Source: an uncultured virus (IMG/VR IMGVR_UViG_3300042879_004569)
Taxonomy: Duplodnaviria; Heunggongvirae; Uroviricota; Caudoviricetes
IMG/VR virus record: IMGVR_UViG_3300042879_004569
Length of the DNA: 22,210 nucleotides
Direction: 5' to 3' (one strand)
Shown here piece after piece: positions 3,325 to 20,410 of this stretch (position 1 is the first letter of the stretch; every line of letters begins with the position of its first letter). The position numbers and the translations under genes are program-made. The notes beneath the pieces were generated by a model. The model searched no databases. It saw nothing but the letters and a program-made list of their open reading frames with translations, and had not been told where the DNA came from.

Positions 3325-3372
3325 GGGTTGAATTGAATTGAGTAATGACACATAAGTAAAACTTATATGCTG

Positions 3373-3400
3373 TAAGCAGTTTAATGTCATGCTCAGGACA
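3373..3400 (-). repeat. Pseudoknot repeat family 1, copy 1
   Basis: UGUC CUGAGCAU GACA UUAAAC UGCUUA; P1 UGUC/GACA, P2 UGAGCA/UGCUUA. Confidence 0.85.
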
Positions 3401-6221: not shown

Positions 6222-6297
6222 TGGTACCCGAGGTGAGATTCGAACTCACGCTAGAACGATTTTAAGTCGTTTGCCTCTTCCGCTGGGCTACTCAGGC
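6222..6297 (-). tRNA. trnL: tRNA-Leu(UAA), 76 nt, short variable loop, CCA encoded
   Basis: Acceptor GCCTGAG/CTCGGGT, anticodon arm AACGA-CTTAAAA-TCGTT, T arm GTGAG-TTCGAAT-CTCAC, discriminator A, then CCA. Confidence 0.92.
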
Positions 6298-8385: not shown

Positions 8386-8412
8386 AGTAAGTTCAGAGTA
8401 AGTTTGTAGTGT

Positions 8413-8440
8413 TGAGCAGTTTAGTGTCATGCTCAGGACG
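8413..8440 (-). repeat. Pseudoknot repeat family 1, copy 2
   Basis: CGUC CUGAGCAU GACA CUAAAC UGCUCA. Confidence 0.85.
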
Positions 8441-8935: not shown

Positions 8936-9133
8936 TCAAACCTCAGTAAGTTGCTTTGGTTTCATGAATGCAGATGCTGGACCATACTTTTCGACAAGGT
9001 CGGGAAACGCGTCAAGCAAACGTTGACGATTTAATGGATCCGCATATCGCAATGCTTGAGCAATTGATGAAACAAAGGAACCGCCATGTGATTGCATGAG
9101 ACAAATCATGGCAGTGAATTGAGATGAGTTCAT
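8936..9133 (-). CDS. Small conserved-type phage protein
   Basis: GGSFVSSIAQALRYADPLNRQRLLDAFP pattern recalled from small phage hypotheticals; leader CTCAACTCATG. Confidence 0.75.
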   Translation of the reverse strand: MNSSQFTAMICLMQSHGGSFVSSIAQALRYADPLNRQRLLDAFPDLVEKYGPASAFMKPKQLTEV

Positions 9134-9755: not shown

Positions 9756-9830
9756 TTAGTTAAGTTTGACAATTATTACTGTGACACAAATAATTGCCAC
9801 AGCATATATCAAAGCTTCAGCAATTGTCAT
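9756..9830 (-). CDS. 24-aa hydrophobic micropeptide
   Basis: MTIAEALIYAVAIICVTVIIVKLN; ATGA overlap with the upstream gene's stop. Confidence 0.55.
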   Translation of the reverse strand: MTIAEALIYAVAIICVTVIIVKLN

Positions 9831-10045
9831 TGAAGATTTTCAGGAAGAAGCATGTTGGTATCTTCGTCTGACATGTTGGTCATGACAAACTTTTCTCCGT
9901 CAGGGCTTACAAAGCCGCCAACAAAACCAATACCATTGCGATCTGCAGCTTCTTTCATCTTTGCAACAATTTGCATTGCTTGAAGACGTTGGAAGTCCAA
10001 GGCATCAGGGATGCGAGGCTTGGGAGATTCGTTGAGTGCAGACAT
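9827..10045 (-). CDS. Hypothetical protein
   Basis: 72-aa ORF with leader TTCAAATCATG. Confidence 0.75.
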   Translation of the reverse strand: MSALNESPKPRIPDALDFQRLQAMQIVAKMKEAADRNGIGFVGGFVSPDGEKFVMTNMSDEDTNMLLPENLQ

Positions 10046-10069
10046 GATTTGAATAGGAATGAAAAGTTG

Positions 10070-10122
10070 AGTCTATCAAGTATGTCAAGAGCTAGACAAC
10101 GCCTTTGACATATGGTTACAAT
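10070..10122. promoter_or_regulatory. Overlapping divergent sigma70-like promoters with an 8-bp inverted repeat
   Basis: Plus strand TAGACA-N18-TACAAT (10093-10122). Minus strand TTGTCT-N18-TAGACT with an extended TG. Inverted repeat TATGTCAA...TTGACATA. Confidence 0.5.
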
Positions 10123-10126
10123 AAGT

Positions 10127-10222
10127 GGGTCTCCTGCAGGGACCCACTGGCCAGTGGTTTAAACCAGTTAATTCTGGTACTCGTTCAAAGGGATTCCGTT
10201 GGTTGTAGGCCCAACGGTTTTT
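10127..10222 (+). ncRNA. Candidate ~95-nt sRNA
   Basis: Follows the TACAAT box. Begins with hairpin GGGTCTC-CTGCA-GGGACCC and ends with CCGTTGG-N8-CCAACGG-TTTTT, a terminator-like structure. Confidence 0.5.
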
Positions 10223-10314
10223 CTGGCTTTTGCCAGTCTCACGTAAATGAAGCAAAGGGCGTCTGGCCGCACCAGACTTAGGATCTAATGCGAACCAGCC
10301 CTTCGCTTTACTAT

Positions 10315-10515
10315 TTAAATACCTGCAAGGTGTTCAGGATATTGAGGAGTTGGGTCATAGTCCAACTCATTTTCAAGTAGTGGAATCACTTCATCTTCGA
10401 GAAGTGCAAGCGTTGATGGAGTCAAATGTTGATCCATTTCATGACGTTTTGATTCACGCTCACGAACTGCAATGAGTTCTTTGAGTATGTTTTTGAGAAC
10501 TGCGTATTCATTCAT
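10315..10515 (-). CDS. Hypothetical protein
   Basis: 66-aa ORF with leader AATCAACCATG. Confidence 0.7.
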   Translation of the reverse strand: MNEYAVLKNILKELIAVRERESKRHEMDQHLTPSTLALLEDEVIPLLENELDYDPTPQYPEHLAGI

Positions 10516-10576
10516 GGTTGATTCAGTGATTGTTGTAGTTGAGTAGTTTTAAAATAAAAGCAAATGAAATACATAA

Positions 10577-11008
10577 GTGGAATTCGCTGGTAAATTAGCA
10601 AGCTTTTTGTCACAGCCAACAAGCGATGCACTGTTAGACTTTCAGTTTTACAATCCAAATAGTCCAGAAGGTGTCCAAAAACTTGGCAACGTATTTGGCA
10701 GCCTTCTTGGCAAAGGCTCAATGCAGTTTGGTGATGATACTGGTAGAGCAGCTATTAATCCATTGACTGGACAATTTGAGTTAATGGGAAAAAACTTTGG
10801 TATTGAAATTAATCCAAACCAAATGGATCCCAGTGCACAATTTAAATTCCAATTTGGCAAAGCTGCAGAAAAACCTTCACCTCCTGTAATGATGTCTCAG
10901 TTTTTAAGTGAAGGAATAAAAGAACCTTCACTATCAGCAGGACGACAAGAATTAGAACAGCAACTGGAAAGATACCGTTCTACCAATCCTTATTGGTATC
11001 GTCCTTAA
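10577..11008 (+). CDS. Hypothetical protein, lone plus-strand gene in the minus-strand arm
   Basis: 143-aa ORF (GTG start) with upstream TAAAATAAA and a downstream hairpin. Confidence 0.75.
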   Translation: MEFAGKLASFLSQPTSDALLDFQFYNPNSPEGVQKLGNVFGSLLGKGSMQFGDDTGRAAINPLTGQFELMGKNFGIEINPNQMDPSAQFKFQFGKAAEKPSPPVMMSQFLSEGIKEPSLSAGRQELEQQLERYRSTNPYWYRP

Positions 11009-11723: not shown

Positions 11724-11753
11724 GATTTGCGGTGATTTGAATGTAGTATTTGT

Positions 11754-11781
11754 CGAGCAGTTTAATGTCTTACTCAGGACA
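11754..11781 (-). repeat. Pseudoknot repeat family 1, copy 4
   Basis: UGUC CUGAGUAA GACA UUAAAC UGCUCG. Confidence 0.85.
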
Positions 11782-12910: not shown

Positions 12911-12937
12911 AAGTTGAGATGTTGAGTAACAATAGTG

Positions 12938-12997
12938 TGCAGGAAGTAAATCCTGCAAGAAAGCCTGGTGTTACTCAGGCCTTGATGCAGGAATTAA
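12938..12997 (-). repeat. Switch-hairpin repeat family 2, copy A
   Basis: stop-UUAAU-UCCUGCA...[GGCCUG/CAGGCU]...UGCAGGA-UUUACU-UCCUGCA. Confidence 0.75.
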
Positions 12998-13399
12998 TCA
13001 GAGTTCAACGGGCTCTAGCGTTGGCTGGGCCTTAGGTTTCTTGACAACAGCTTTAGGTTCATCCTTCGGTTGAGGCTTGGAACCAAAGGCATAGTCAATA
13101 ACCTTGAGTTGAAACTCTGGTTGCTTGAGCGGAATAAGTTCGTCATCTTTGAGATAAAACGAACGAATGCCCTGGATTTTACCGGTAACATGCAACTCTT
13201 GTCCAACGACAAGGTTGTTGTTCTTGTACGCAGTCAGCAATCCGTTCGAGTTAAGAAACCGAACAGTGATTGTGGAATCTTGAGTGATTCGATGGTACAA
13301 GGTAACAGCCAGGCAATCCCGCTCGTCTTCTGTTTGCAAGACTTTGAGGTCTGCAATGCGACCAACGAGAGTCAGTGATTGAAGGTCAGCGTAAGCCAT
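12998..13399 (-). CDS. SSB-like OB-fold protein
   Basis: SLTLVGRI...AVTL...TVRF...LVVGQELHVTGKI pattern; lacks a classic acidic DF tail. Confidence 0.6.
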   Translation of the reverse strand: MAYADLQSLTLVGRIADLKVLQTEDERDCLAVTLYHRITQDSTITVRFLNSNGLLTAYKNNNLVVGQELHVTGKIQGIRSFYLKDDELIPLKQPEFQLKVIDYAFGSKPQPKDEPKAVVKKPKAQPTLEPVEL

Positions 13400-13428
13400 A
13401 AGTTGAATTGAATTGAATGCAATGAATA

Positions 13429-13504
13429 GCAGGATGTTGAGTCCTGCAGTAAACCCACCGTCCGATACGAATTCGTATCAAAACGGAAGGGTTAAATGCA
13501 GAAA
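13429..13504 (-). repeat. Switch-hairpin repeat family 2, copy B (contains a 16-bp palindrome)
   Basis: stop-UUUCUGCA...[AACCC...GGGUU]...UGCAGGA-CUCAACA-UCCUGC. Confidence 0.75.
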
Positions 13505-13744
13505 TCAATCGAGGTGATCCAATTCCCATTTAATCAGTGCCTTATTAGCTTGAACTTTGCGTTCAATCACAGCACAGAAAGGAATTAGATCTTTGAACTC
13601 ACACATGTGATCCTGCCATTGAAAGAAGATTTCCAGCGCAGCTTGACGCTGTGCTTCGAGTTCTTGATCAATGACAGGGGCATCTCTCCTGGCAAGCAGG
13701 CGAGCTTCTTGTGTGAGCAGATGTTCAACGGCTTTAGGAGTCAT
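13505..13744 (-). CDS. Hypothetical protein
   Basis: MTPKAVEHLLTQE...; leader CTCAATCATG. Confidence 0.7.
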   Translation of the reverse strand: MTPKAVEHLLTQEARLLARRDAPVIDQELEAQRQAALEIFFQWQDHMCEFKDLIPFCAVIERKVQANKALIKWELDHLD

Positions 13745-13775
13745 GATTGAGTCCAGTTGGAGTTGAGTTGAATTA

Positions 13776-13826
13776 GCAGGATGAATCCTGCAGAAACCCA
13801 TCAGTAACGATGGGTAGTTGCAGAAA
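13776..13826 (-). repeat. Switch-hairpin repeat family 2, copy C
   Basis: stop-UUUCUGCA...[ACCCAUC/GAUGGGU]...UGCAGGA-UUCA-UCCUGC. Confidence 0.75.
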
Positions 13827-14024
13827 TCACAAGTAATGTTTGTCGACGCAATAGTAAGTATCACCAAGAAAACCGGTGATCATTACTAATTGATGCGTCG
13901 CCTTTGACGGACAATGTTTAATGTAGTGCTGGTTGATTAGCTTCTGACAGGCAACTGCCAAAAGCATGCCAACACCTGTGCCAAGTACCATGGCAAGCAC
14001 TGGAGACATTGATAGATTTCTCAT
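13827..14024 (-). CDS. Small membrane/secreted protein
   Basis: Hydrophobic VLAMVLGTGVGMLLAVAC; TAATG coupling with the upstream gene. Confidence 0.65.
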   Translation of the reverse strand: MRNLSMSPVLAMVLGTGVGMLLAVACQKLINQHYIKHCPSKATHQLVMITGFLGDTYYCVDKHYL

Positions 14025-14257: not shown

Positions 14258-14294
14258 TGGTTGAGGTGAAGCCAGGAGTAATGCACCTGGCAAT

Positions 14295-14341
14295 AACTGG
14301 ACCAGGGTTTGCACCTGGTCACCCGCTTTTACGGATCAGTT
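14295..14341 (-). ncRNA. tRNA-mimic repeat family 3, copy X
   Basis: AACUG AUCCGU-AAAA-GCGGGU GACCAGG-UGCAAAC-CCUGGUC CAGUU. Confidence 0.7.
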
Positions 14342-14488: not shown

Positions 14489-14531
14489 GGTTTACTCCTG
14501 TTGTGCGGTACCCATCTCCGCTGAGGGTAAT

Positions 14532-14578
14532 AACTGGGCAGGGGATTGCACCCTGCCTCCCGCTTTAACGGATCAGCT
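14532..14578 (-). ncRNA. tRNA-mimic repeat family 3, copy Y
   Basis: AGCUG AUCCGU-UAAA-GCGGGA GGCAGGG-UGCAAUC-CCCUGCC CAGUU. Confidence 0.7.
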
Positions 14579-19363: not shown

Positions 19364-20410
19364 GTGATTCCTGTACAACTTCGTTTTACTCTTCCTAAAC
19401 AAGTCACTTCTGTTGTAGAAGGCCTTAAGACCGGCTTTAAAGCGGGAGAAAATGTGATTGCCGAAATGGCGTCCCAAGGTAATACTGATTACACCGTATT
19501 TAAAAATAAAAAGTTTCTTCAAAATCTTCAGCAAGGCGCTCCAGCTAAATCGGTGAAAGGACCGGGCGGTTCGTCAACGGTCAATCCTCCTCGCCCGCCA
19601 ATTTCTTTTCAAGAAACTCCGGCTGAATTTTTAGGCGCTTATGCAGCGCGAGTTGCGACTGATGTTGGGAGTAAATCCACCATGATGCATTGGTGGCGCA
19701 ATAATACTGCTCCTGCAGTGGCCGATCAATTAACCGAAAAAGCAATTGATGCTCACGGCATGCAGTTAACACCGACGCAAAAAGCCGTAATTTCAGCTTC
19801 TGTTTCTTTACCCTTCTTTGTAAATACTGGAACAATTGACGTTACGAATCCAGGGGAATTTTTTAGGCCAAAAGGGTACGCTCAAATGCACCCGGAAGTT
19901 GGTGCGGAGGATCGCCGCGAAACAGCTCAGCCAGGCCTTGAGTTATTTGAACGTTTGGTTCTTCAACGCCAAGGTCAACCATTAAAGTACGAAACAGCAA
20001 AACAAGATATTCCTTCTTTGACGCCGCAGGCTTACGGAGAAGCAATGCGTAGTTACTACCAAGACAAAGGCTTGTTTGGTCTGGGCGTTCTCAAAGGAAC
20101 AACTTCAAATCTTCAAGGTGTTCCTGAAGTTCGCATGCTTGGTTTCCCCGTGGGAATCCCCGCAGTTACCTCTCTTGCTGGTGGTGTTGCAGGAATCAAA
20201 ATGGCAGCTGCTCAACCAAAGCCACAAGCCAGGAAGTTGGCGGCAGGTGGTTTACTGGGCTCCCTGGCTGGTATGGCGGTAGGCAATGTTGCTAACAAAA
20301 TTATTTCCGCCGTCAATCGTTCTGGAGAGCCATCTTATCCGGAACGTTTACCTCAAACACAAGAGGTTAAATATCCATATGAAAAAGATGGCGTAGTTTA
20401 TTGGTCTTAA
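19364..20410 (+). CDS. Hypothetical protein, putative virion protein
   Basis: 348-aa ORF with C-terminal glycine-zipper-like helices (AGGVAG, AAGGLLGSLAGMAVG). Confidence 0.8.
   Translation: MIPVQLRFTLPKQVTSVVEGLKTGFKAGENVIAEMASQGNTDYTVFKNKKFLQNLQQGAPAKSVKGPGGSSTVNPPRPPISFQETPAEFLGAYAARVATDVGSKSTMMHWWRNNTAPAVADQLTEKAIDAHGMQLTPTQKAVISASVSLPFFVNTGTIDVTNPGEFFRPKGYAQMHPEVGAEDRRETAQPGLELFERLVLQRQGQPLKYETAKQDIPSLTPQAYGEAMRSYYQDKGLFGLGVLKGTTSNLQGVPEVRMLGFPVGIPAVTSLAGGVAGIKMAAAQPKPQARKLAAGGLLGSLAGMAVGNVANKIISAVNRSGEPSYPERLPQTQEVKYPYEKDGVVYWS

What the first reader, a model, noticed from the sequence alone, without database searches (positions are those of the whole stretch)
10127..10222. Promoter-and-terminator-bounded sRNA whose 5' loop is complementary to the family 2 switch core
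Seen: a ~95-nt non-coding plus-strand unit between a TACAAT box and a hairpin-UUUUU. Its first hairpin displays UCCUGCAG (10132-10139), complementary to (C/U)UGCAGGA, the central strand of all three family 2 repeats. Established: P4 CI RNA and P1 C4 RNA act in trans by pairing with short repeated targets in phage leaders. Inference: one sRNA could co-ordinately flip several early-gene switches. Caveat: the match is only 8 nt and CCTGCAGG is self-complementary, so chance is possible.
Basis: inference. Interest (0 to 1): 0.7.

Follow-up and report, generated by a model that had tools for sequence, protein, structure and literature searches.

The report
Conserved structured small RNA of cyanophages
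The flagged stretch is the first half of a roughly 180-base folded non-coding RNA gene shared by a lineage of lake cyanophages, but its proposed pairing with repeats elsewhere in the genome is not kept in relatives.

Summary
The sequence features exist as described: TACAAT 10117-10122, hairpin 10127-10145 holding UCCUGCAG, hairpin plus U5 at 10196-10222, and three (C/U)UGCAGGA repeats. But the unit is mis-bounded. It is the 5' half of a larger element (about 10128-10306) conserved in Synechococcus phage S-EIVl and in more than 90 viral and metagenome contigs. The element has a TAnnnT box (63 of 65 distinct sequences), two 5' hairpins, variable inserts and an almost invariant 3' three-way junction. 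Covariation is strong: 97% of cells are paired against 30-46% in slid controls, and 12 of 22 pairs show compensatory changes. No Rfam family matches. There is one copy per genome.

The "terminator" U-run is peculiar to this window (a hairpin plus U-run in 3 of 65 sequences, a true U5 only here). The CUGCAG apex occurs in only 12 of 65 relatives; the others carry UUGCAA, CUCGAG or UGAUCA. Their genomes nevertheless keep CUGCAG-core repeats, so loop and repeat do not co-vary. Pairing is also not favoured energetically (ddG 0, 0 and -2.4 kcal/mol).

Verdict: this is a real, undescribed phage small RNA family of unknown function. The trans-pairing "switch-flipping" idea is not supported. The strand (+) rests mainly on the promoter and on G-U patterns; expression is not shown.

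The parts
10093..10098 (+). -35-like hexamer TAGACA, 18 nt upstream of the -10 box
   Evidence: Consensus scan, (10 of 12 matches). Relatives of types a and b have TGGCCA at the same distance (read). Weak evidence.
10117..10122 (+). -10 box TACAAT of the RNA gene
   Evidence: TAnnnT in 63 of 65 distinct relatives (TACAAT 18, TATACT 17, TACGAT 16, TACAGT 5, TAGACT 3, TACATT 2, others 2). It lies 5-6 nt before G(G)UCU in 61 of 63. T, A and T are invariant or nearly invariant in A3.
10127..10145 (+). H1, the 5'-terminal hairpin GGGUCUC-CUGCA-GGGACCC. It holds the flagged UCCUGCAG (10132-10139).
   Evidence: Fold. RNAalifold pairs 22-38, 25-37, 26-36 and 27-35 show compensatory changes. The apex sequence differs among five types. 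The U-G pair, present in 40 of 58 sequences, would be a C-A mismatch on the minus strand.
10144..10157 (+). H2, palindromic hairpin CCACUGGCCAGUGG with an invariant GGCC centre
   Evidence: All 4 of its pairs show changes on both sides; 98.3% of cells are paired. Six sequence variants exist.
10163..10178 (+). Small hairpin ACCAG-UUAAUU-CUGGU in the variable region
   Evidence: Folds. It is not alignable to most relatives.
10190..10197 (+). Conserved block GGGAUUCC, partly the 5' strand of H4
   Evidence: Conserved columns in A2 and A3.
10196..10222 (+). It is an internal hairpin of the RNA.
   Evidence: The stem covaries in relatives (CCAUUG/CAAUGG, CCAUCG/CGAUGG). A hairpin plus U-run before the junction is found in only 3 of 65 sequences, and a true U5 only in the window.
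10223..10236 (+). Hairpin CUGGC-UUUU-GCCAG in the variable region
   Evidence: A similar UUCUGGCUUUUGC is seen in L050 and L051.
10252..10306 (+). 3' three-way junction. P1 is 10252-10260 with 10298-10306. P2 is 10261-10277 (loop CCGCA). The junction strand is UUA. P3 is 10281-10296 (loop UAAUGC).
   Evidence: P1 95.5%, P2 96.3% and P3 99.7% of cells paired, with compensatory changes in all three helices. Loops and junction are invariant in all sequences found. Model R1 scores 84.5 bits here, and the next best hit in the window is its own reverse strand at 15.6 bits.
10070..10088 (-). Divergent promoter-like block of the neighbouring gene: TTGACA (10088-10083) and extended -10 TGATAGACT (10078-10070), about 25 nt before the ATG at 10045
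   Evidence: Read. AGTCTAYCA-N4-TGTCAA recurs in relatives. It was not called by the scan. Inference.
12911..13000 (-). Family 2 repeat C (UUGCAGGA ... UCCUGC), a claimed target
13400..13510 (-). Family 2 repeat B (CUGCAGGA ... UCCUGC), a claimed target
13745..13830 (-). Family 2 repeat A (CUGCAGGA ... UCCUGC), a claimed target

Best explanation
Window 10127-10222 is the 5' half of a single-copy, independently transcribed, structured non-coding RNA gene of about 180 nt (about 10128-10306, + strand). The gene is shared by the S-EIVl lineage of freshwater and some marine cyanophages.

Shown: conservation, secondary structure with covariation, a conserved -10 box at a fixed distance, one copy per genome, and no Rfam family.

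Inferred: (1) Transcription starts about 6 nt after TACAAT, so H1 is a 5'-terminal hairpin. Its lower stem (GUCU/AGAC) is kept and its apex is free to change, which fits a 5' stabilising or structural arm rather than a conserved antisense seed. (2) H4 plus U5 is an internal arm, at most a leaky stop peculiar to this phage. (3) The business end is the three-way junction. Its loops (CCGCA, UAAUGC) and junction (UUA, A) never vary. I take it to be a docking platform for a conserved partner: a protein, another RNA, or further copies of itself.

The RNA does not act by pairing its H1 loop with the family 2 repeats as a conserved mechanism. The confidence given is for this whole statement except the nature of the partner, which is open.
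For: Homologs: S-EIVl; 15 IMG/VR contigs; 76 metagenome contigs; 1 MAG contig. These give 65 distinct full-length sequences.

Structure: 97.2% of 1272 cells paired against 30-46% when partners are slid. 12 of 22 pairs have changes on both sides. 0 of 500 shuffles reach the observed covariation score. RNAalifold finds the same helices on its own: 29 pairs, 19 with compensatory changes.

Promoter: TAnnnT in 63 of 65 sequences, at a fixed spacing.

Strand: G-U cells on + number 41, against 26 A-C cells, which would be G-U on the minus strand. In addition there are U-G at H1 pair 27-35 in 40 of 58 sequences and at P1 pair 216-268 in 19 of 58.

Single copy: in the window and in 5 of 5 whole relatives' records.

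No Rfam match on either strand.

H1 apex types and repeat cores do not co-vary. The hairpin plus U-run is found in 3 of 65. A mini-ORF across P2 is broken by TGA in the UCAGG/CCUGA variants (read).
Against: No expression data were obtained. The strand is not settled by structure: RNAalifold energy is -32.0 on + against -31.6 on - for A3, and the junction alone is slightly better on - (-25.0 against -23.2). Single-sequence MFE favours the minus strand in 41 of 58 sequences. 26 A-C cells would be G-U on the minus strand.

No conserved terminator follows the junction: a hairpin plus U-run lies within 150 nt in 14 of 65.

All homologs were found with a pattern that fixes the loop letters. 'Invariant loops' is therefore partly by construction, although a pattern leaving the loops free found no new variant in IMG/VR.

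Function is inferred only. The -35 element is weak or absent in type c.
Confidence: 0.6

Rival explanations
1. One reading: a ~95-nt sRNA ends at the U-run, and its H1 loop (UCCUGCAG) pairs in trans with (C/U)UGCAGGA in the three family 2 repeats and flips them together.
For: The 8-nt complementarity is real. In type-a relatives the longest Watson-Crick match to their own repeats is 6-9 nt (at least 7 for 9 of 10 elements), and 9 of the 10 repeat cores found in their loci read GGA after CUGCAG, which suits the RNA's UCC. The window does have a hairpin plus U5.
Against: Only 12 of 65 distinct relatives have the CUGCAG apex. Records with other apex types keep CUGCAG-core repeats: G009, G008, S-EIVl, G011, G012 and G015, which is 6 of 9 such records examined. 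There the longest match is 4-5 nt. The association within type a is confounded by shared ancestry. Three of the eight seed nucleotides and the whole target core lie in stems. ddG by cofold is 0, 0 and -2.4 kcal/mol in the window. The terminator is not conserved. CCTGCAGG is a palindrome, so 'complementary' cannot be told from 'same motif'.
Confidence: 0.06
2. The folded element works on the minus (gene) strand, as a structured intergenic module or 3' UTR of the early polycistronic message, like the other intergenic modules of this lineage. The + strand promoter would be incidental or secondary.
For: The element lies between two co-directional minus-strand genes, starting about 10 nt after the stop codon at 10315. 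Helices are strand-symmetric and fold energies are equal or slightly better on the minus strand. 26 A-C cells become G-U there. Other gaps of this phage hold sense-strand structured repeats (earlier notes). The minus-strand junction is followed by U-rich sequence (UUUGCUUCAUUU).
Against: The TAnnnT box at fixed spacing makes sense only on the + strand. H1 would carry a C-A mismatch in 40 of 58 sequences, and the innermost P1 pair in 18 of 58. The downstream gene has its own promoter-like block beyond the element. Unlike the repeat families, the element is single-copy.
Confidence: 0.2
3. The point is the act of transcription or the perfect antisense overlap. A convergent + strand transcript meets read-through from the upstream gene (10515-10315), or forms duplex RNA with it, and so insulates the next gene, which then depends on its own promoter.
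For: The geometry fits: the RNA gene is convergent with the upstream gene and divergent from the next one, whose promoter-like block lies back to back with the RNA promoter. No conserved terminator follows the RNA, so it may run antisense into the upstream gene.
Against: This does not explain invariant loops, or helices kept by compensatory change over 65 sequences. In L002 a terminator-like hairpin for the upstream gene already precedes the element.
Confidence: 0.08
4. DNA-level element: the spacer-less palindromes (CCTGCAGG, CACTGGCCAGTG) are operators for a dimeric DNA-binding protein, perhaps the adjacent 72-aa protein, or belong to a replication origin.
For: H1 and H2 are perfect palindromes lying at +1 to +30 of the promoter. 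The 72-aa neighbour stays next to the element in at least 42 of 65 loci, and on the other side of it in the L004 group. Its model resembles MADS-box DNA-binding domains, weakly: Foldseek E 0.18, and VIA Z 5.3, 5.1, 5.1 and 4.5 for the top four chains.
Against: Half-sites change in step while the protein stays 71-86% identical in the 37-row alignment. An asymmetric U-G variant of H2 occurs in 9 of 58 sequences. P1 and P3 are separated arms, not palindromes, and covary. There is no GC-skew turn near 10.2 kb. Fold matches with Z under 8 may be only a common arrangement.
Confidence: 0.06

Closest known systems
Antisense immunity RNAs of phage P4 (CI RNA) and P1 (C4 RNA).
   Same: A small phage-encoded RNA proposed to pair with short repeated targets in leaders of the same genome.
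   Different: Here the complementary 8-mer is present in only 12 of 65 relatives and does not co-vary with the repeats. Seed and target are both in stems. The RNA has its own promoter on the strand opposite to the target transcripts, rather than being cut from the leader.
phi29 packaging RNA (pRNA). Features are recalled, not from a call.
   Same: A phage RNA of similar size, built on a three-way junction. Two of its hairpin loops carry 4 nt complementary to each other (here CGCA in the P2 loop and UGCG at the P3 loop), closed by a 5'/3' helix.
   Different: No Rfam family, pRNA included, appears in any cmscan. The host phage is an ~80-kb cyanophage with unrelated genes. There is no evidence for a role in packaging. 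The loop-loop pairing cannot be tested because both loops are invariant.
Self-assembling natural RNAs: manA motif of cyanophages, ROOL, GOLLD (bioRxiv 10.64898/2026.07.01.735769, abstract and section 7 read; PMC12286853, start of abstract in the search listing)
   Same: Phage-associated structured RNAs without known function, some under 200 nt. Self-complementary exposed sequences here (UGCA, UCGA or GAUC in H1; GGCC in H2) would allow copies to join.
   Different: No sequence or structure match by cmscan. Oligomerisation here is only an inference from loop sequences.
CyVA-1 RNA motif (Weinberg et al. 2017, PMC5737381, one passage read; accession RF02965 taken from an earlier scan note)
   Same: A small RNA motif that an earlier scan note links to cyanophages; I read no function for it in the one passage seen.
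   Different: Not listed by cmscan at E up to 10 on the window stretch, or up to 5 on 12 relatives. The paper says CyVA-1 averages 78 nt; this RNA is about 140-280 nt.
Rho-independent terminator (general knowledge)
   Same: 10196-10222 has a 7-bp stem with 5 G-C pairs, followed by U5.
   Different: It lies upstream of the most conserved domain of the RNA and lacks the U-run in relatives (3 of 65 by a lax rule).

Membership tests
Trans-acting antisense sRNA with repeated targets (P4 CI / P1 C4 kind) | Seed complementary to each target copy | tested here: met
   In the window the longest Watson-Crick match is 8, 8 and 7 nt to repeats A, B and C.
Trans-acting antisense sRNA with repeated targets (P4 CI / P1 C4 kind) | Seed and targets conserved or co-varying in relatives | tested here: not met
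   The apex is CUGCAG in 12 of 65. Records of types b, c and e keep CUGCAG-core repeats, with only 4-5 nt matches to their own H1.
Trans-acting antisense sRNA with repeated targets (P4 CI / P1 C4 kind) | Seed accessible, and duplex favoured over the intramolecular folds | tested here: not met
   Only 5 of 8 nt are in the loop. Cofold ddG is 0, 0 and -2.4 kcal/mol in the window. This comes from a thermodynamic model only.
Trans-acting antisense sRNA with repeated targets (P4 CI / P1 C4 kind) | RNA made, and binds the target in vivo or in vitro | not testable with these tools
   Needs Northern blot or RNA-seq and gel shifts.
Any Rfam 15 family | Covariance-model score at or above the gathering threshold | tested here: not met
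   Only tRNA-Leu at 6225-6297 passes in the window. On 10040-10330 at E up to 10 there is one chance-level hit, outside the RNA proper. On 12 relatives at E up to 5 there is one chance-level miRNA hit.
Sigma-70-type promoter | -10 hexamer TAnnnT conserved at a fixed distance from the transcript's first structure | tested here: met
   63 of 65 sequences; spacing of 5-6 nt in 61 of 63.
Sigma-70-type promoter | -35 hexamer at 16-18 nt | tested here: inconclusive
   TAGACA at 18 nt in the window. TGGCCA in types a and b, and nothing similar in type c (read).
Sigma-70-type promoter | Mapped transcription start | not testable with these tools
   The RNA runs available were contigs only, which cannot show starts or strand.
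Intrinsic terminator at 10196-10222 | G+C-rich hairpin directly followed by a U-run | tested here: met
   7 pairs, 5 of them G-C, then TTTTT.
Intrinsic terminator at 10196-10222 | Kept at the 3' end of the conserved unit in relatives | tested here: not met
   3 of 65 sequences have any hairpin plus U-run before the junction. Conservation continues for another 85 nt.
phi29-type pRNA | Three-way junction with two loops of mutual 4-nt complementarity and a closing 5'/3' helix | tested here: inconclusive
   The architecture is present. The loop-loop pairing cannot be tested because both loops are invariant.
phi29-type pRNA | Homology to pRNA, and a phi29-like packaging system | tested here: not met
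   No Rfam hit. No phi29-like gene was named by PHROGs or Pfam among the ORFs scanned: 37 ORFs and 15. Most of these had no match at all.
Self-assembling RNA (manA / ROOL / GOLLD kind) | Homo-oligomer formation | not testable with these tools
   Only loop self-complementarity was seen. Needs native gels, SEC or cryo-EM.

The most novel reading that the evidence does not exclude
The RNA is built to stick to copies of itself. Every exposed loop is self-complementary or complementary to another loop. The H1 apex is a different but always palindromic tetramer in four sequence types (UGCA, UGCA, UCGA, GAUC). The H2 loop is GGCC in 64 of 65 sequences. It would then be a small phage RNA that forms rings, cages or filaments, as recently shown for the cyanophage manA motif, perhaps together with the adjacent conserved 72-aa protein.
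Probability: 0.12. Interest if true: 0.85.

Novelty: new variant of a known kind. Interest (0 to 1): 0.55.

Why it matters
S-EIVl-like phages are widespread in lakes. The family was found on more than 90 contigs, and this window's DNA is held nearly whole by 15 lake metagenome runs. Their genes are almost all of unknown function. A strongly conserved, single-copy RNA with invariant loops is one of the few features of this lineage that can be attacked directly, and the GenBank record names a cultured phage-host pair. If it binds a host factor or self-assembles, it adds a new class to the short list of phage structured RNAs.

The negative result also matters. The attractive picture of one sRNA flipping several switches rests on a palindrome shared by chance or ancestry. 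It should not be carried over to the family 2 elements, which are real and still need their own explanation.

Tried and rejected
1. Rfam: gathering scan of the window, permissive scans of 10040-10330 and of 12 relatives. Nothing relevant came up.

2. tRNA/tmRNA scan: only tRNA-Leu, elsewhere in the window.

3. Near-identity search of the phage collection: no match. Exact search for H1 in IMG/VR and for the H2 block: no match.

4. The window's own assembly is not held. The nearest record, G001, is an 8.6-kb fragment without the region.

5. Expression: four lake metatranscriptome runs were laid as contigs. Six contig pieces at depth 2-2.8 lie on neighbouring stretches (9000-9093, 9852-10041, 9854-10004, 10366-10516, 10494-10644, 10527-10797). 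None lies on 10092-10343. Contigs at this depth, from libraries not made for small RNAs, cannot show absence, starts or strand, so this says nothing either way.

6. Mini-ORF across the junction (AUG ... UAA, 13-14 codons in types a and b): rejected. The P2 variant UCAGG/CCUGA puts TGA in frame, and type c has no AUG.

7. Replication origin: no GC-skew turn near 10.2 kb.

8. Targets for the invariant loops inside the window: no exact complement outside the locus for the P2 or P3 loop. There is one for GGGAUUCC, inside an ORF at 20153.

9. RNA.duplexfold energies were unrealistically large and were discarded. Cofold on H1 against each repeat was used instead.

10. Loop variants: a pattern with free loops found only the 12 contigs already known.

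11. Literature: no paper holds 16-17-nt strings of the junction. Searches on S-EIV1 plus cyanophage and on cyanophage small RNA listed nothing on this RNA. Only listings and abstract starts were seen.

12. Earlier scan notes by place and by sequence: nothing.

13. Strand by folding energy: undecided.

Full report
**Observation.** TACAAT lies at 10117-10122. A hairpin GGGUCUC-CUGCA-GGGACCC lies at 10127-10145 and holds UCCUGCAG at 10132-10139. A second hairpin, CCGUUGG/CCAACGG, is followed by UUUUU at 10196-10222. The consensus scan lists both TAGACA-18-TACAAT and the hairpin plus U-run. The stretch lies in the gap 10046-10314 between two minus-strand ORFs. YTGCAGGA occurs 7 times in the window against 1.86 expected. 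Three of these are the family 2 repeats at 12951, 13442 and 13786 on the minus strand. Each is a hairpin GCAGGA-loop-UCCUGC (3 found against 0.01 expected), preceded by a stop codon, (U)UCUGCA and another hairpin. Because CCTGCAGG is a palindrome, one search also lists 10132-10139 as a minus-strand copy, so "complementary" and "the same motif" cannot be told apart here. Three further copies elsewhere in the window are about what chance gives. The 96 nt alone do not fold unusually well (z = -1.52).

**The unit is larger.** The window is a cyanophage. It encodes a DNA polymerase, a thymidylate synthase and an HNH nuclease. Its only relative in the phage collection is Synechococcus phage S-EIVl (annotated region). 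In S-EIVl the same gap holds blocks nearly identical to the window, although the flanks have diverged. These blocks extend to window 10306, well past the supposed terminator. A 20-nt block found 9 IMG/VR contigs. A looser pattern found 15 IMG/VR contigs, 1 MAG contig and 76 metagenome contigs.

Of the loci held, I dropped 10 before analysis. L079 is G+C-rich with no P2 pairing and is probably a chance match. Five loci are cut by contig ends (L006, L017, L060, L085, L094). Four lack the 5' part (L056, L071, L082, L099). This left 65 distinct full-length sequences. For alignment A3 I used 58 of the 65. The 7 left out were L007 (first hairpin replaced), L050, L057, L059, L086 and L107 (about 120-nt insert) and L083 (contains N).

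**Structure.** On A3, the helices I named (H2, P1, P2, P3; 22 pairs) are paired in 97.2% of 1272 cells, against 30-46% when partners are slid by 1-3 columns. 12 of the 22 pairs show changes on both sides. 0 of 500 shuffles reach the observed covariation score. RNAalifold, run independently, returns the same helices plus H1 and an extension of P1: 29 pairs, 19 of them with compensatory changes.

In window coordinates the plan is as follows:
- -10 box: 10117-10122.
- H1: 10127-10145.
- H2: 10144-10157 (CCACUGGCCAGUGG).
- Variable middle: small hairpins at 10163-10178, 10196-10217 and 10223-10236, and the conserved block GGGAUUCC at 10190-10197.
- Three-way junction: 10252-10306. P1 is 10252-10260 with 10298-10306. 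P2 is 10261-10277 with loop CCGCA. The linker is UUA. P3 is 10281-10296 with loop UAAUGC.

Loops and junction never vary in the set. This is partly because the search pattern fixed them, but a pattern with free loops found no new contig in IMG/VR. A covariance model of the junction (R1) finds one copy in the window (84.5 bits; the next best hit is its own reverse strand at 15.6 bits). It also finds one copy in each of 5 of 5 whole relatives' records. No Rfam family matches on either strand.

**Strand and promoter.** A TAnnnT hexamer precedes H1 in 63 of 65 sequences, and by 5-6 nt in 61 of those 63. The hexamers are TACAAT 18, TATACT 17, TACGAT 16, TACAGT 5, TAGACT 3, TACATT 2 and two others. 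This pattern has meaning only on the + strand. G-U cells on + number 41, against 26 A-C cells. In addition, H1 pair 27-35 is U-G in 40 of 58 sequences and P1 pair 216-268 is U-G in 19 of 58. All of these would be C-A mismatches on the minus strand.

Against this, folding energies do not choose. RNAalifold gives -32.0 on + against -31.6 on -, the junction alone is slightly better on -, and single-sequence MFE favours the minus strand in 41 of 58. I put the + strand at roughly three in four. Expression is not shown.

**The 3' boundary.** The hairpin at 10196-10217 is an internal arm. Its stem covaries in relatives. A hairpin followed by a U-run before the junction occurs in only 3 of 65 sequences, with a true U5 only in the window. 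It may be a leaky stop in this one phage. No conserved terminator follows the junction either: a hairpin plus U-run lies within 150 nt in 14 of 65, and the first 14 nt after P1 are 45% U. The true 3' end is unknown.

**The pairing hypothesis.** The H1 apex falls into types:
- CUCGAG: 30 sequences.
- UUGCAA: 16.
- CCUGCAG(G/A): 12.
- UGAUCA: 6.
- Replaced: 1.

Family 2-like elements are present in relatives with the same plan: stop codon, YYCUGCA, hairpin, UUUnCUGCAG-NN-loop-NN'-CUGC. The NN part changes in a compensatory way (GA/UC, AC/GU, GG/CC, AGU/ACU, GAU/AUC). That search required GCAG, so the constancy of that core is by construction.

The informative point is that records whose RNA lacks the CUGCAG apex still have such elements. 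These are G009 and G008 (type b), S-EIVl, G011 and G012 (type c) and G015 (H1 replaced), which is 6 of 9 such records examined. None was found in G007, G010 or G013, and for G007 the relevant side is off the contig. The longest Watson-Crick match between H1 and the phage's own repeats is 6-9 nt in type a and 4-5 nt in types b and c. In the window, cofolding H1 with repeats A, B and C gives ddG of 0, 0 and -2.4 kcal/mol, because both partners are already in stems.

Within type a, 9 of the 10 repeat cores found read GGA, which would suit the RNA's UCC. This cannot be separated from shared ancestry.

**What it is and how it may work.** Shown: a conserved, single-copy, structured element with a conserved + strand -10 box. 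Inferred: it is a small RNA gene. H1 is a 5'-terminal arm whose lower stem (GUCU/AGAC) is kept and whose apex drifts. The invariant junction is the functional surface.

Three observations bear on the partner, and none is decisive.
1. All exposed loops are self-complementary or mutually complementary: UGCA, UCGA or GAUC in H1, GGCC in H2, and CGCA against UGCG between the P2 and P3 loops. This allows self-association. It recalls phi29 pRNA (recalled knowledge) and the self-assembling manA motif of cyanophages (bioRxiv 10.64898/2026.07.01.735769, abstract and section 7).
2. The 72-aa gene at 9827-10045 stays beside the element in at least 42 of 65 loci, and in the L004 group it lies on the other side. 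The protein is highly conserved (297 relatives; 71-86% identity in the 37-row alignment). Its model (pLDDT 77.6) resembles MADS-box DNA-binding domains, but weakly: the top Foldseek rows have E 0.18-0.8, and the top four of 48,161 chains by VIA have Z 5.3, 5.1, 5.1 and 4.5, below the level the tool calls safe.
3. The RNA promoter lies back to back with a promoter-like block (TTGACA ... TGATAGACT, minus strand, 10088-10070) in front of that gene.

**Earlier scan notes** (unchecked leads). Other agents described, in related cyanophages:
- a conserved folded RNA antisense to early genes, with loops "built to stick copies together" (e1-6023447);
- a two-state module starting at the stop codon (e1-6097943);
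- a system of intergenic structured modules (e1-6097927 and others).

The by-sequence look-up found no look-alike of my RNA, so I cannot say the first is the same family.

**Not in print.** No paper in the library holds junction strings of 16-17 nt. Searches on S-EIV1 plus cyanophage and on cyanophage small RNAs listed nothing on it; only listings and abstract starts were seen. Supplements were not consulted.

Noticed in passing
window 9827-10045 (-): A 72-aa protein of unknown family lies next to the RNA in at least 42 of 65 related loci, and on the opposite side in the L004 group. It has 297 relatives and is very conserved. Its AlphaFold model looks weakly like a MADS-box (SRF/MEF2) DNA-binding domain: Foldseek E 0.18, and VIA Z of 4.5-5.3 for the top four chains.
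   Followed up: partly
window 10070-10088 (-): A conserved block TTGACA-N4-TGATAGACT (extended -10-like) lies about 25 nt before the ATG of the 72-aa gene, back to back with the RNA promoter. AGTCTAYCA-N4-TGTCAA recurs in relatives.
   Followed up: partly
window 12911-13000, 13400-13510, 13745-13830 (-); L026-L040: Family 2 elements are conserved across relatives with one plan: stop codon, YYCUGCA, hairpin, UUUnCUGCAG-NN-loop-NN'-CUGC. The NN pairs change in a compensatory way. UUCUGCA upstream could pair with UGCAGGA as an alternative to the local hairpin. This is a real RNA-level module whose role is open.
   Followed up: partly
window 3370-3399, 8410-8439, 11751-11780: A three-copy 30-nt repeat reads GUCCUGAGCAUGACACUAAACUGCUC on the minus strand, just before gene starts. 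Relatives have GACGUUAAACUGC there. Earlier scan notes call a similar element coremin-like. I did not test this.
   Followed up: no
window 14289-14339 and 14526-14576: Two copies of a 51-nt repeat, 80% alike. Their inner hairpin differs by compensatory changes (CUGGACCAGGG...CCUGGUC against CUGGGCAGGGG...CCCUGCC).
   Followed up: no
window 6222-6297 (-): A tRNA-Leu (anticodon UAA) lies among the early and replication genes (57 bits to Rfam tRNA).
   Followed up: no
L007 / G015; L050, L057, L059, L086, L107: Modular variation of the RNA. In L007 the first hairpin is replaced by a roughly 55-nt insert behind the same -10 box. In the L050 group about 120 nt are inserted between H2 and the junction. 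The junction is unchanged in both.
   Followed up: partly
window 9000-9093, 9852-10041, 10366-10797: Contigs from four lake metatranscriptome runs match these neighbouring stretches, which include the flanking small genes, at 99-100% identity and depth 2-2.8. Near-identical sequence is therefore present in RNA libraries from lakes.
   Followed up: partly
window 10250-10288 (+): A 13-codon reading frame (AUG AAG CAA ... AUC UAA) runs through the junction in types a and b. It is broken by TGA in the UCAGG/CCUGA variants and has no AUG in type c, so it is not a conserved peptide.
   Followed up: yes
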